64,000 nt of DNA from Escherichia coli (lineage in GTDB: Bacteria; Pseudomonadota; Gammaproteobacteria; Enterobacterales; Enterobacteriaceae), in assembly GCF_013315695.1 (NCBI RefSeq), contig NZ_CP054353.1. One strand, given 5' to 3'. The notes under the pieces are model-generated. The model ran no database searches and had not been told where the DNA came from. It saw only the letters and a program-made list of their open reading frames with translations. Positions 54,670 through 57,088 of this stretch are shown piece by piece (position 1 is the first letter of the stretch; each line of letters starts with the position of its first letter). The translations under genes were made by a program, and so were the position numbers.

Positions 54670-55075
54670 TACCACCTCTTAAAAAAATGCCCACATAGTG
54701 TAGTGCGGAGCGCATGTTGGGTAAACAGAGTGTTAATGAGAAAATATTACAGAGGAGAATAGTTTGTGTGTCAGGTATGTTTATTTTGCATTCATAAAAT
54801 GAATGCTCTATATGTTGAAAAAATTATTCTTAAAGCTAAATAGTTTTACATCAAAAGTAATAATATTATTTCTTGATTGCTATGTGCATTTTTTATCTTG
54901 CGAACATGCTATTTTTATCTCACTAAATAAACGATTTGGTGACATCGATGATAATGTTTCAGGTTAAATGTGTGCTTATTACTTGGGCCTTTATTGTACT
55001 GTATTTATTCATTAAATGGATGTTTGGTGGTTAATTATCATGGAAATATATGACAGAGAGAGCATAAAGGTATAC

Positions 55076-56011
55076 ATGTTAACTAAAAGAATATTATTTT
55101 CTTTAATGCTAATAGTTTCACCATGCGTGGTGGCAAGCGAGAAAGCGCATGAATTGTATGACAGCATATACGGTGGTCAACCTGCGCCCGATGTTATAAA
55201 TAGACTGCATAAAATGGCTGAATTGGGAGATGTCGACGCGCAGAGCCTGTTAGGCTGGGAATATTATCAGCCTCGCTTTGATACCAAACCTGATGTTCAG
55301 GAAGCGATTAAATGGTTTGAGTTAGCCGCTAAACACGGTGATAGAGAAGCTCCGTTAGCGCTGGGGAGTATCTACTACGACGGTGAGCTGGTGCGGGTGG
55401 ATTATGCCAAAGCGTATGCACTATTTAATCAGGCCGCGCAATACGGTGTGAATTTAGCATGGTCCAGGTTGGGCATGATGTACGCCAATGGTCAGTATGT
55501 TGAGGTCGATTGTAAGAAAGCGAAGGAATATCTTGATAAAGGTGTCCACATTTATGGTGGTCCGGAAGACTTTCTGGCTACATGTCGAAAAGACATGATT
55601 GACAGAAAAATGGTTGACGATACGTTACCCGTGATCACGGTTACCCGTTCTGGGATGCGGGATAATTTTTTAGATAAAGGTTTTTCCTGCATGGATAGCC
55701 TCTTCGCCACCACCAATAAATTAGGCGAAGTGGCCAATCTTCGCGTGACATTCAGCATTCGTAGCCCATCCGGTAAGGAGATTAACCAAACGGTTGGCTT
55801 CGCGCCTTTCGGTTTAAACCGGCTGAATATTAGCTTTACTGATTACATATTTGATTCATTTACCAGTAATTCGTCTCTAATTCTTTATAAACCGGAATTT
55901 GAGCGAAAATCTTGTGCAACTGTAAGGACCACAATCGTTGCCGCAACGGCAACCATTAACGGCAAGGATGTGGAGTTGCTGAAAGCGGGGGCAATTGAAC
56001 AAAAGTGGTAA
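55076..56011 (+). CDS. Secreted Sel1-repeat (SLR/TPR-like) protein with an uncharacterised C-terminal domain
   Basis: RBS AAAGG 6 bp upstream of ATG 55076; signal peptide MLTKRILFSLMLIVSPCVVA; repeated ...A..W...AA..G...A...LG..YY.G... Sel1 motifs; not part of the K-12 yajR-cyoE junction as I recall it. Confidence 0.7.
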   Translation: MLTKRILFSLMLIVSPCVVASEKAHELYDSIYGGQPAPDVINRLHKMAELGDVDAQSLLGWEYYQPRFDTKPDVQEAIKWFELAAKHGDREAPLALGSIYYDGELVRVDYAKAYALFNQAAQYGVNLAWSRLGMMYANGQYVEVDCKKAKEYLDKGVHIYGGPEDFLATCRKDMIDRKMVDDTLPVITVTRSGMRDNFLDKGFSCMDSLFATTNKLGEVANLRVTFSIRSPSGKEINQTVGFAPFGLNRLNISFTDYIFDSFTSNSSLILYKPEFERKSCATVRTTIVAATATINGKDVELLKAGAIEQKW

Positions 56012-56066
56012 CGCTGCTCAGTCCCCGGCTGAGGCAAAACTAGCCCTGGCCGGAGGCGATAATAAT

Positions 56067-56609
56067 CTAAGCCGCGAGAATATGCTGAATCGCTAAAAAC
56101 ATCGGTACAGCACCGAAAACATTGGGCCTCGCTGAAAGCTGAACAAAGCCGAGGCGAGTATAAAAGTTAATGGCGGCAGGGTCAGCATCAAGATAAACCC
56201 CTTTAATTGGTAATGCACGGTGAATTATTTTTACATGTTCAAAAAAATCACATAGTAGGTCCTGACCAAAGCCCCGCTTTTGATATTTCCGCGCTACCCC
56301 TAACATGACTAATCTGACAACACCAATCTCTGAAGGTTGTGAACCCTGAAGGACGCCAGAAACGCGTTGTTTTTCCAGCGAATATGCCGTAAAAGTACAG
56401 ATGCCAATCAGTTCACCACTTTGTCTGTCAATAAGAGCTTTAGCAGCACAGTCGCTATTACGCACACTTTTCTTTAGCGATGCGCGTACAAATTTATCGA
56501 TAACAGGGTTACCGCAATCAAACTGTTTTTGCCCAGGATAAGTAATATCAGACTGATAATTACAGGAGAGGACTATGGGCAGAGTAATCTCTTCATGCTT
56601 GTCGACCAT
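56067..56609 (-). CDS. GNAT-family acetyltransferase toxin (TacT/AtaT/ItaT-like type II toxin)
   Basis: 180-aa ORF with N-terminal FDCG motif (QKQFDCGNPVIDKF), cf. QRFDCGEEALN remembered from AtaT; GNAT acetyl-CoA signature (RGFGQDLLCDFFE); immediately downstream of and overlapping a DUF1778-type antitoxin. Confidence 0.75.
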   Translation of the reverse strand: MVDKHEEITLPIVLSCNYQSDITYPGQKQFDCGNPVIDKFVRASLKKSVRNSDCAAKALIDRQSGELIGICTFTAYSLEKQRVSGVLQGSQPSEIGVVRLVMLGVARKYQKRGFGQDLLCDFFEHVKIIHRALPIKGVYLDADPAAINFYTRLGFVQLSARPNVFGAVPMFLAIQHILAA

Positions 56610-56904
56610 CGCTGTTTTTCCTTTTCATTAACGCCTTGAGGGCGAGCGTCGGTTGAGCAGGTTCAGCGATGAGTTGGTTCATCAGTTCCCAGCTTTGATT
56701 CGAAAGCTCACGGCGACGTTGGTTATCAAGCACACTTTCGGCGCGTTCCATAGCTGCGCTCAAAATAAAAGCGCTTAAATCTACCCCAACGGCTTGCGCA
56801 GCTTCACGAAGTTTGTTTTTGGCGTCGGGACTGGTTTTGAGTTCAACCCGCGCATTTTTCAGCGTTTTATCGATATCGGGTAGAGCGACTGTTTTTCCAG
56901 GCAT
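56593..56904 (-). CDS. DUF1778 (RHH) antitoxin partner of the GNAT toxin (TacA/AtaR-like)
   Basis: 103-aa protein from MPGKTVALPDIDKTLKNARVELKTSPDAKNKLREAAQAVGVDLSAFILSAAMERAE...; RBS AGAGG upstream of ATG at 56904; ORF track start at 56970 is probably over-extended. Confidence 0.7.
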   Translation of the reverse strand: MPGKTVALPDIDKTLKNARVELKTSPDAKNKLREAAQAVGVDLSAFILSAAMERAESVLDNQRRRELSNQSWELMNQLIAEPAQPTLALKALMKRKNSDGRQA

Positions 56905-57052
56905 TATGACCTCTTTGATTAACTGAATGAAATCGTAGGGAGTCGATCTCATGCATAATACGGCTATCAACCGTGTGATTAATTTATGTGCATATGCTCA
57001 CTCTGTCAAGAGATACGGTTATTAGCCGTATCTCTGATCTCAGACAATAAAA

Positions 57053-57075
57053 AAGGTGCCGTAGCACCTTTTTTA
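57053..57075 (-). terminator. Rho-independent terminator of the cyoABCDE operon
   Basis: AAGGTGCCGTAGCACCTT hairpin flanked by A-run and T-run (reads as a terminator on both strands). Confidence 0.75.
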
Positions 57076-57088
57076 TAGAGAGGTTGTA

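What the first reader, a model, noticed from the sequence alone, without database searches (positions are those of the whole stretch)
54670..57088. About 2.4 kb accessory islet between yajR and cyoE: secreted Sel1-repeat protein convergent with a GNAT toxin-antitoxin pair
K-12 has only a short intergenic region between yajR and the cyoABCDE terminator, as I recall it. Here the gap holds an AT-rich leader of about 400 bp, a signal-peptide-bearing Sel1-repeat protein (55076..56011) and, convergent to it, a DUF1778-antitoxin/GNAT-toxin operon (56904..56067). The module lies between the cyo terminator (57053..57075) and the yajR promoter region, with no integrase or IS attached. Whether the Sel1 protein and the toxin-antitoxin pair are one functional unit or independent cargo is open.
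Basis: partly seen in the sequence, partly recalled or inferred. Interest (0 to 1): 0.6.

Follow-up and report, generated by a model that had tools for sequence, protein, structure and literature searches.

The report
ItaRT toxin-antitoxin beside ancestral Sel1 gene
The gap between yajR and cyoE holds the already characterised ItaR/ItaT toxin-antitoxin pair next to an old, uncharacterised exported Sel1-repeat protein gene; the two are independent neighbours rather than one system, so the finding is largely ordinary.

Summary
Window 54670-57088 holds three intact genes that K-12 lacks, with no integrase, IS or tRNA.

The toxin-antitoxin pair is not new. It is ItaR/ItaT, characterised in E. coli HS and BL21(DE3). 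ItaT matches wild-type ItaT at 176 of 180 residues, and all tested catalytic and pocket residues are intact.

The same three-gene block sits at this site in 1367 of 5426 complete E. coli genomes.

Relatives of the Sel1 gene lie beside cyoE in Salmonella, E. albertii, cryptic Escherichia clades and Pseudocitrobacter, often without the TA pair. ItaRT-like pairs occur on Citrobacter and Serratia plasmids without the Sel1 gene.

Synonymous divergence of the three genes matches that of the flanking genes. This is therefore an old, eroding variable locus, not a recently inserted islet and not a combined system.

Modest new points:
- the IrmA-like domain of the Sel1 protein;
- two conserved palindromes flanking the itaRT promoter;
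- a scar left by a lost second Sel1 paralog.

Interest is low.

The parts
54670..55075 (.). AT-rich divergent control region between yajR and the Sel1 gene. The first ~95 nt is the yajR leader, homologous to K-12's. Positions 55050-55067 (ATG ACA GAG AGA GCA TAA) look like the scar of a deleted 499-aa Sel1 paralog.
   Evidence: 30-31% G+C. It is 77% identical to the leader upstream of the long Sel1 paralog in L020/L021/L023, and the alignment ends at that gene's start codon. Leader alignment.
55076..56011 (+). Sel1S, an exported 311-aa protein. It has a signal peptide (residues 1-20, VVA|SEK), Sel1-like repeat helices (about 21-178) and an IrmA-like beta-sandwich (about 187-310). Four cysteines are invariant (C146, C170, C205, C280).
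56012..56066 (.). 55-bp spacer between the convergent stop codons of Sel1S and itaT. It forms a stable hairpin with no T-tract.
   Evidence: RNAfold gives -20.3 and -20.5 kcal/mol on the two strands.
56067..56609 (-). [quoted passage not shown]
   Evidence: 175/180 identical to PDB 7BYY, which is the G115D crystal mutant. It therefore matches wild-type HS ItaT at 176/180, with G115, Y150, V36, I37, F40 and M102 intact.
56593..56904 (-). itaR, an RHH/DUF1778 (TacA-family) antitoxin. It overlaps itaT by 17 nt.
   Evidence: KacA matches at E 3.5e-11 and AtaR at 8.6e-9. RefSeq names it a 'TacA family antitoxin'. Orthologs carry Pfam TacA1.
56958..57031 (-). itaRT promoter: -35 TTGACA at 57009-57004 and -10 TAAATT at 56986-56981. 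It is bracketed by two palindromes (57013-57031 and 56958-56976), which are candidate ItaRT operators.
   Evidence: Promoter scan scores 10/12. Inverted repeats I1 and I3. Both palindromes are invariant from E. coli to Pseudocitrobacter and L005 while the spacer around them diverges. A 172-bp upstream fragment was shown to be an ItaRT-repressed promoter (PMC6125619).
57047..57076 (-). cyoABCDE intrinsic terminator. The right edge of the K-12 indel abuts its T-tract.
   Evidence: 13-bp perfect inverted repeat I2. K-12 homology resumes at 57046. Pseudocitrobacter and L005 keep the hairpin through compensatory changes.

Best explanation
The segment holds two independent units that became neighbours in an old variable locus. 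Unit 1 is the itaRT type II toxin-antitoxin operon. ItaT uses acetyl-CoA to acetylate the alpha-amino group of charged Ile-tRNA (and less efficiently Val- and Met-tRNA), which blocks translation. ItaR binds and neutralises ItaT, and the complex represses the operon's own promoter. That repression probably acts through the two conserved palindromes that bracket the -35 and -10 (inferred). Unit 2 is Sel1S. It is made from the AT-rich divergent region shared with yajR and exported by the Sec pathway (inferred from the signal peptide). It folds in the periplasm, probably with two disulfides. It acts as a protein-binding adaptor through a Sel1-repeat solenoid and an IrmA-like FNIII beta-sandwich; its ligand is unknown. 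Sel1-family genes were already beside cyoE before Escherichia and Salmonella diverged. itaRT was inserted once between Sel1S and the cyo terminator. A longer paralog (Sel1L) was later deleted in the lineage of this window. K-12-type strains carry a different, empty allele of the whole gap.
For: ItaT identity and intact residues. Published biochemistry: PMC6125619 and PMC7367177. Antitoxin homology. Promoter and palindromes. All three genes are under purifying selection, and their dS (0.04-0.13 against BL21) is similar to that of yajR and cyoE (0.10-0.12). Sel1 gene without TA at the same site: E. albertii, Escherichia sp. E4930, MOD1-EC7003, L008 and Salmonella. Sel1 gene elsewhere without TA: Pectobacterium and Affinibrenneria. 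TA without Sel1: a Citrobacter phage-plasmid, a Serratia plasmid and a Rahnella megaplasmid. In L005 the toxin has decayed while the Sel1 genes stay intact. The genes are convergent, each with its own promoter. There are no PADLOC hits.
Against: Within E. coli the Sel1 gene and the TA pair are almost perfectly co-inherited (1369 against 1368 genomes). The same Sel1-TA arrangement is kept in Pseudocitrobacter, a second genus. A functional tie therefore cannot be excluded by genomics alone. The function, localisation and ligand of Sel1S are inferred only. No expression data were examined.
Confidence: 0.8

Rival explanations
1. The Sel1 protein and the GNAT/DUF1778 pair form one three-gene system, for example a defence or stress module in which the exported Sel1 protein senses a signal and releases the toxin.
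For: They are tightly co-inherited in E. coli. The same arrangement is found in Pseudocitrobacter and in Escherichia sp. E4694.
Against: All co-occurrences are syntenic at one locus, so they count as one event. Each part occurs alone in many taxa. Sel1S has a signal peptide while ItaR and ItaT are cytoplasmic. The genes are convergent. ItaRT alone reproduces full TA behaviour in K-12, which lacks Sel1S (PMC6125619). PADLOC finds nothing. Sel1S evolves much faster than the TA pair: 58% against 86-89% amino-acid identity to Pseudocitrobacter.
Confidence: 0.04
2. The segment is a recently acquired mobile islet, inserted as a block into a K-12-like empty site.
For: It has lower G+C than the flanks, a patchy distribution in E. 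coli, and ItaRT relatives on plasmids.
Against: There are no mobility genes, tRNA or target duplication. The dS of the islet genes equals that of the flanks. Orthologous Sel1 genes occupy the same site in Salmonella, E. albertii and Pseudocitrobacter. The empty K-12 allele has its own diverged leader, 58% identical to the window's but 85% identical to Citrobacter's. The polymorphism is therefore an old allele replacement, not a clean insertion.
Confidence: 0.08
3. itaRT acts as a local addiction module. Its only link to Sel1S is that it disfavours deletions spanning the locus, which helps to retain the neighbouring gene.
For: Of the 1369 E. coli genomes with any match to the Sel1S gene, 1363 keep at least 80% of it, and the TA pair is found in 1368 genomes. 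TA-free relatives show more varied cargo next to Sel1S. Stabilisation of chromosomal regions by TA pairs is an established idea, cited in PMC6125619 for the superintegron.
Against: In L005 the toxin decayed while both Sel1 genes survive. Salmonella and E4930 keep Sel1 genes with no TA pair.
Confidence: 0.15

Closest known systems
ItaR/ItaT of E. coli HS and BL21(DE3) (Wilcox et al. 2018, PMC6125619; Zhang et al. 2020, PMC7367177; PDB 7BYY)
   Same: Same genes at the same chromosomal site. ItaT matches wild type at 176/180 residues. The acetyl-CoA loop QKRGFG (110-115), the general acid Y150 and pocket residues V36, I37, F40 and M102 are all conserved. ItaR has the same length and overlaps itaT. 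The promoter region is the same.
   Different: Four conservative ItaT substitutions (Q131R, A151T, T161R, A164V) and about 3% DNA divergence. This allele is found at 99% identity or more in only ~85-103 of 1367 carriers.
TacAT (Salmonella), AtaRT (E. coli O157:H7) and KacAT (Klebsiella), all GNAT/RHH toxin-antitoxin systems
   Same: Same architecture and chemistry: a DUF1778 antitoxin upstream of a GNAT toxin that acetylates aminoacyl-tRNA. PDB hits have E of 1e-5 to 1e-9 for the toxin and 1e-8 to 1e-11 for the antitoxin.
   Different: Only about 25-35% identity. According to the cited papers, these systems have different aminoacyl-tRNA specificities.
EsiB/c5321 and other bacterial Sel1-like repeat proteins (PDB 4BWR, 1OUV HcpC, 6DEH LpnE)
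   Different: Sel1S has only 3-4 repeats and carries an extra C-terminal beta-sandwich that these proteins lack.
IrmA (c1275), the interleukin-receptor mimic of uropathogenic E. coli (PDB 5EK5; Pfam PF18673; PMC4807369)
   Different: 17% identity, and the window protein itself scores E = 1.6 against Pfam IrmA. The profile does not retrieve IrmA from the PDB. The domain is fused to Sel1 repeats rather than standing alone. The strand-swapped dimer and cytokine binding are untested.

Membership tests
ItaRT (GNAT/RHH type II toxin-antitoxin) | The toxin is a GNAT with the acetyl-CoA loop Q/RxxGxG/A and the catalytic Tyr150. | tested here: met
   QKRGFG at 110-115 and Y150 are present. The roles of G115 and Y150 come from PMC7367177.
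ItaRT (GNAT/RHH type II toxin-antitoxin) | Orthology to the characterised ItaT, including the aminoacyl pocket V36, I37, F40 and M102. | tested here: met
   175/180 identical to 7BYY (the G115D construct), which is 176/180 to wild type. All pocket residues are identical.
ItaRT (GNAT/RHH type II toxin-antitoxin) | An upstream, overlapping DUF1778/TacA-type RHH antitoxin gene. | tested here: met
   17-nt overlap. KacA and AtaR match at E 3.5e-11 and 8.6e-9. RefSeq name.
ItaRT (GNAT/RHH type II toxin-antitoxin) | An autorepressed promoter upstream of the antitoxin gene. | tested here: inconclusive
   The sequence features are present: a -35/-10 promoter-like site and two cross-genus invariant palindromes. 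Repression was shown only for the HS allele (PMC6125619).
ItaRT (GNAT/RHH type II toxin-antitoxin) | Toxicity of the toxin alone and its neutralisation by the antitoxin. | not testable with these tools
   Shown experimentally for the HS allele, which is 98% identical (PMC6125619).
Sel1-like repeat (SLR) proteins | Tandem Sel1 repeats forming an alpha-solenoid. | tested here: met
IrmA family (PF18673) | Significant sequence match to the family profile. | tested here: inconclusive
   The window protein scores E = 1.6. Two of 23 relatives score E <= 0.001 and six score <= 0.1. The reverse profile search does not find 5EK5.
IrmA family (PF18673) | The IrmA FNIII-like fold. | tested here: met
IrmA family (PF18673) | A domain-swapped dimer that binds IL-2, IL-4 and IL-10. 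| not testable with these tools
   These properties are known only for IrmA itself (PMC4807369).
Anti-phage defence systems (PADLOC) | A match of any of the three proteins to a defence-system model. | tested here: not met
   There are no hits for ItaT or ItaR. Sel1S gives one sub-threshold repeat match (PtuA, 17 bits, no stretch passing).
Mobile genomic island | An integrase, transposase, tRNA target or flanking direct repeats, and younger than the flanks. | tested here: not met
   None of these was found. The dS of the islet genes is about that of the flanks. The site is occupied by orthologs in other genera.

The most novel reading that the evidence does not exclude
Probability: 0.1. Interest if true: 0.55.

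Novelty: already known. Interest (0 to 1): 0.2.

Why it matters
It matters little for discovery. The toxin-antitoxin pair is a textbook-level characterised system, and the block is present in BL21(DE3), HS and a quarter of E. coli genomes.

The useful outcomes are three:
- A clear answer that the Sel1 gene and ItaRT are independent neighbours.
- A documented example of how an apparent 'islet' relative to K-12 is really an ancestral locus eroded to different degrees.
- A pointer to an uncharacterised, conserved exported protein family with an IrmA-like domain that could be tested cheaply in BL21 or HS.

Tried and rejected
- **Defence-system reading.** PADLOC gave nothing usable.
- **NCBIfam naming.** All three proteins gave only sub-cutoff hits.
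- **Non-coding RNA in the AT-rich leader.** There was no Rfam hit at E <= 1.
- **Sequence-level link of the C-domain to IrmA or any solved structure.** A profile search of the PDB gave only noise, with hemocyanin at E = 0.14. Homology to IrmA therefore rests on fold plus weak Pfam hits.
- **A second, independent Sel1-TA association in Pectobacterium.** One locus (L014) has an unrelated GNAT/DUF1778 pair 2 kb away. None was seen in the sequence retrieved for the other five Pectobacterium loci, one of which (L018) ends within the Sel1 gene. I treat this as coincidence.
- **A loose global alignment of the K-12 spacer against the whole islet.** It scattered across the islet and was discarded in favour of the multiple alignment.
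- **Literature search.** Searches for the Sel1 gene by locus tag, accession or gene neighbours found only the ItaT paper.
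Full report
**1. Observation**

The ORF list and sequence confirm three intact genes in the yajR-cyoE gap:
- a 311-aa ORF on the + strand (55076..56011);
- a 180-aa ORF on the - strand (56067..56609);
- a 103-aa ORF on the - strand (56593..56904) that overlaps the 180-aa ORF by 17 nt.

The RefSeq record that is 100% identical to the window is E. coli AF3, a blood isolate. It annotates the same three genes as 'tetratricopeptide repeat protein', 'GNAT family N-acetyltransferase' and 'type II toxin-antitoxin system TacA family antitoxin'. 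They lie between yajR and cyoE.

G+C falls to 30-31% in the 400-bp leader and to 42-50% over the three genes. The flanks are 52-56%.

K-12 has 148 bp between yajR and cyoE. BLAST homology breaks at window 54679 and resumes at 57046.

A multiple alignment shows that K-12's 95 'unique' bases are a diverged homolog of the first ~95 nt of the leader. The conserved blocks are TAGTGTA, GCGG, GGGTAAAC and AAATATT. The real indel is therefore about 54775..57045, roughly 2.27 kb.

No integrase, IS, tRNA or flanking direct repeat is present. No Rfam family matches.

**2. The toxin-antitoxin pair is ItaR/ItaT**

The GNAT protein matches PDB 7BYY at 175/180 residues, E = 1e-115. 7BYY is the ItaT(G115D) crystal construct (PMC7367177). 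The window protein has the wild-type G115, so it differs from E. coli HS ItaT at only four positions: Q131R, A151T, T161R and A164V.

The following residues are intact:
- the acetyl-CoA loop QKRGFG;
- the general acid Y150;
- the aminoacyl-pocket residues V36, I37, F40 and M102.

The antitoxin matches KacA (E = 3.5e-11) and AtaR (E = 8.6e-9).

Published work shows four things (PMC6125619 and PMC7367177):
- ItaT alone arrests growth of MG1655 and ItaR neutralises it.
- ItaT acetylates Ile-tRNA(Ile), and more weakly Val-tRNA and Met-tRNA.
- The ItaR-ItaT complex, but not ItaR alone, represses a 172-bp upstream promoter fragment.
- A virtually identical pair is present in BL21(DE3).

I confirmed the same three-gene arrangement in BL21 and found the TA pair in strain HS.

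**3. Promoter anatomy (sequence shown, function inferred)**

On the - strand, directly after the cyo terminator (57076-57047), there is a -35 TTGACA (57009-57004) and a -10 TAAATT (56986-56981). It scores 10/12 and is the best promoter-like site in the region.

Two related palindromes bracket it:
- 57013-57031, immediately upstream of the -35;
- 56958-56976, immediately downstream of the -10.

Both palindromes are invariant in E. coli, Escherichia sp. E4694, a Pseudocitrobacter MAG and a metagenomic enterobacterium (L005). The surrounding spacer diverges. They are the obvious candidate operators for the RHH antitoxin complex. The ItaT paper does not use the words operator or palindrome.

**4. 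Distribution within E. coli**

Counts among 5426 complete genomes:

| Query | Genomes with a match |
|---|---|
| Whole block, >=80% coverage | 1367 |
| Sel1 gene alone | 1369 |
| TA pair alone | 1368 |

Carriers include BL21, C43(DE3), HS and O104:H4. Non-carriers include K-12, O55:H7, O127:H6 and APEC O1.

Most carriers are about 96% identical to the window. Only 85-103 share this allele at >=99%. A 99% identical UniProt entry comes from strain IAI39.

The near-perfect co-occurrence reflects one linked block at one locus. It is not independent evidence of a functional tie.

**5. Beyond E. coli the two parts separate**

Content of the gap between yajR and cyoE:

| Taxon or locus | Content |
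|---|---|
| E. albertii | Sel1S (81%) plus an unrelated 325-aa secreted ORF; no TA |
| Escherichia sp. MOD1-EC7003 | Sel1S plus other cargo; no TA |
| Escherichia sp. E4930 | 499-aa paralog (Sel1L) plus Sel1S, converging on cyoE at one bidirectional terminator; no TA |
| Escherichia sp. E4694 and E. coli CP057686 | Sel1L, Sel1S and itaRT |
| Pseudocitrobacter MAG | Sel1L, Sel1S (58%), ItaT (89%), ItaR (86%) |
| Metagenomic relative L005 | Sel1L, Sel1S, a 79-residue ItaT remnant, intact ItaR |
| L008 | Sel1L only |
| Salmonella enterica | Two Sel1L-type genes, both with the same C-terminal domain; no TA |
| Citrobacter | Two DUF1493 genes |
| Kluyvera | A hok-family gene and a phage-type integrase |

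This gap is therefore a general variable hotspot.

In Pectobacterium and Affinibrenneria the family sits elsewhere, next to an AraC/DJ-1 regulator.

ItaT relatives of 63-77% identity, each with a DUF1778 partner, occur without any Sel1 gene on:
- a Citrobacter freundii phage-plasmid, among tail and baseplate genes;
- a Serratia plasmid, next to repB.

A 71% ItaT relative also lies on a Rahnella megaplasmid, but its neighbourhood was not inspected.

The only plasmid-database hits to Sel1S are megabase-sized E. coli records.

**6. Age**

Nei-Gojobori estimates for the window against BL21:

| Gene | dS |
|---|---|
| Sel1S | 0.07 |
| itaT | 0.13 |
| itaR | 0.04 |
| yajR | 0.10 |
| cyoE | 0.12 |

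The block is therefore as old as its flanks within E. coli.

All three genes are under purifying selection. dN/dS is 0.2-0.3 for Sel1S, 0.03-0.2 for ItaT and 0.1-0.4 for ItaR.

The window's leader (54670-55052) aligns at 77% with the leader upstream of Sel1L in the four-gene haplotype. The alignment ends exactly at Sel1L's start codon, and homology resumes at the Sel1S start codon.

The remaining ATG ACA GAG AGA GCA TAA (55050-55067) looks like the scar of an almost complete deletion of Sel1L. E. albertii shares the same scar.

The proximal yajR leader falls into three types that ignore the species tree:
- K-12 and Citrobacter, 85% identical;
- the window and L005, 81% identical;
- Salmonella and Kluyvera, 88% identical.

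K-12 and the window are only 58% identical. The empty and occupied states in E. coli are therefore old, distinct alleles. They were probably exchanged by recombination and do not reflect a recent insertion or deletion.

**7. The Sel1 protein**

Pfam finds three Sel1 repeats. PDB Sel1 proteins, with EsiB/c5321 first, match the N-terminal half.

The N-terminus is MLTKRILFSLMLIVSPCVVA|SEK. It has the form of a Sec signal peptide. The cysteine in it is not conserved in orthologs, so a lipoprotein is unlikely.

An AlphaFold model built from 26 homologs has pLDDT 86.6 and pTM 0.83. It shows:
- disordered residues 1-19;
- paired helices over 17-178;
- an eight-strand beta-sandwich over 187-310.

Four cysteines are invariant across the family: C146, C170, C205 and C280. 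This fits an oxidising compartment (inference).

Sequence support for homology to IrmA is weak. Pfam IrmA hits 6 of 23 family members at E <= 0.1 and 2 at <= 0.001, but the window protein itself scores only E = 1.6. The family profile does not retrieve IrmA from the PDB.

The domain family is small. It has 34 representatives at E <= 0.001 among 1.84 billion proteins. Wherever a full-length protein is seen, the domain is fused to Sel1 repeats. It occurs in Escherichia, Shigella (fragments only), Salmonella, E. fergusonii, Pectobacterium, Proteus, Morganella and Achromobacter.

I found no paper on this gene.

**8. Verdict**

The interpretation as a combined module or an inserted islet is not supported. 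The TA pair is the already characterised ItaRT. The Sel1 gene is an older resident of a hotspot, and the two separate freely outside this locus.

The remaining unknown is the function of the exported Sel1/IrmA-like protein. My best-supported guess is a periplasmic or secreted protein-binding adaptor; the ligand is unknown.

Interest is low (0.2). The case is 'already known' for the system, with minor new annotation-level insights.

Noticed in passing
window 56958-56976 and 57013-57031: Two related palindromes (ATACGGnTAnnAnCCGTnT) bracket the itaRT -35 and -10. They are invariant from E. coli to Pseudocitrobacter while the spacer around them diverges. They are candidate ItaR-ItaT operators and are not mentioned in the ItaT paper.
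   Followed up: partly
window 54680-54775 versus L001 1581-1675, L027, L026, L028: The proximal yajR leader comes in three types that ignore the species tree: K-12 and Citrobacter (85%), the window and L005 (81%), and Salmonella and Kluyvera (88%). K-12 and the window are only 58% identical. The empty and occupied E. coli alleles look like old, recombined haplotypes.
   Followed up: partly
window 55050-55067; L020 2491-3990: A six-codon mini-ORF (ATG ACA GAG AGA GCA TAA) appears to be the scar of a deleted 499-aa Sel1 paralog (Sel1L). That paralog is still present in a few E. coli, cryptic Escherichia clades, Pseudocitrobacter and Salmonella. E. albertii carries the same scar.
   Followed up: partly
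L003 6048-7025 (E. albertii); split into two ORFs in L004: In E. albertii a 325-aa signal-peptide ORF with no Pfam hit occupies the position where E. coli has itaRT. It is disrupted in a second strain.
   Followed up: no
L005 6984-7544 and L006 2992-3552: In a metagenomic enterobacterium the ItaT gene is reduced to a 79-residue remnant. ItaR (82% identical) and its promoter palindromes remain intact, making it an orphan antitoxin.
   Followed up: partly
L024 (Citrobacter freundii plasmid NZ_CP145667.1) 3706-4546: An ItaRT-like pair (toxin 77% identical) sits among baseplate, tail and morphogenesis genes and near parA on a 97-kb plasmid, presumably a phage-plasmid.
   Followed up: no
L014 8448-9173 (Pectobacterium carotovorum): An unrelated GNAT/DUF1778 pair (25% identical to ItaT) lies 2 kb from the Sel1L ortholog, in convergent orientation. 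It was seen in only one of six Pectobacterium loci, so it is probably coincidence.
   Followed up: yes
window 55016-56011: In-frame upstream ATGs at 55016 and 55040 give a 331-aa model. The UniProt entry for the 99% identical IAI39 protein uses this longer form and is labelled 'putative zinc-dependent hydrolase'. No result here supports that label.
   Followed up: partly
window 56012-56066: The 55-bp spacer between the convergent Sel1S and itaT stop codons folds into a stable hairpin (about -20 kcal/mol on either strand) with no T-tract. It may insulate convergent transcription.
   Followed up: no
L028 3423-3578 and 390-1925 (Kluyvera intermedia); L027 2900-3750 (Citrobacter): In other genera the same yajR-proximal gap carries a hok/gef toxin plus a phage-type integrase, or two DUF1493 genes. 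This site is a general hotspot for small accessory cargo, including other toxin systems.
   Followed up: no
P0014 (Shigella sonnei, 193 aa, 377 member sequences); AFDB entries F5NQI4 and A0AAU8WCJ5: Shigella carries only truncated versions of the Sel1S gene, which suggests pseudogenisation in that lineage.
   Followed up: no
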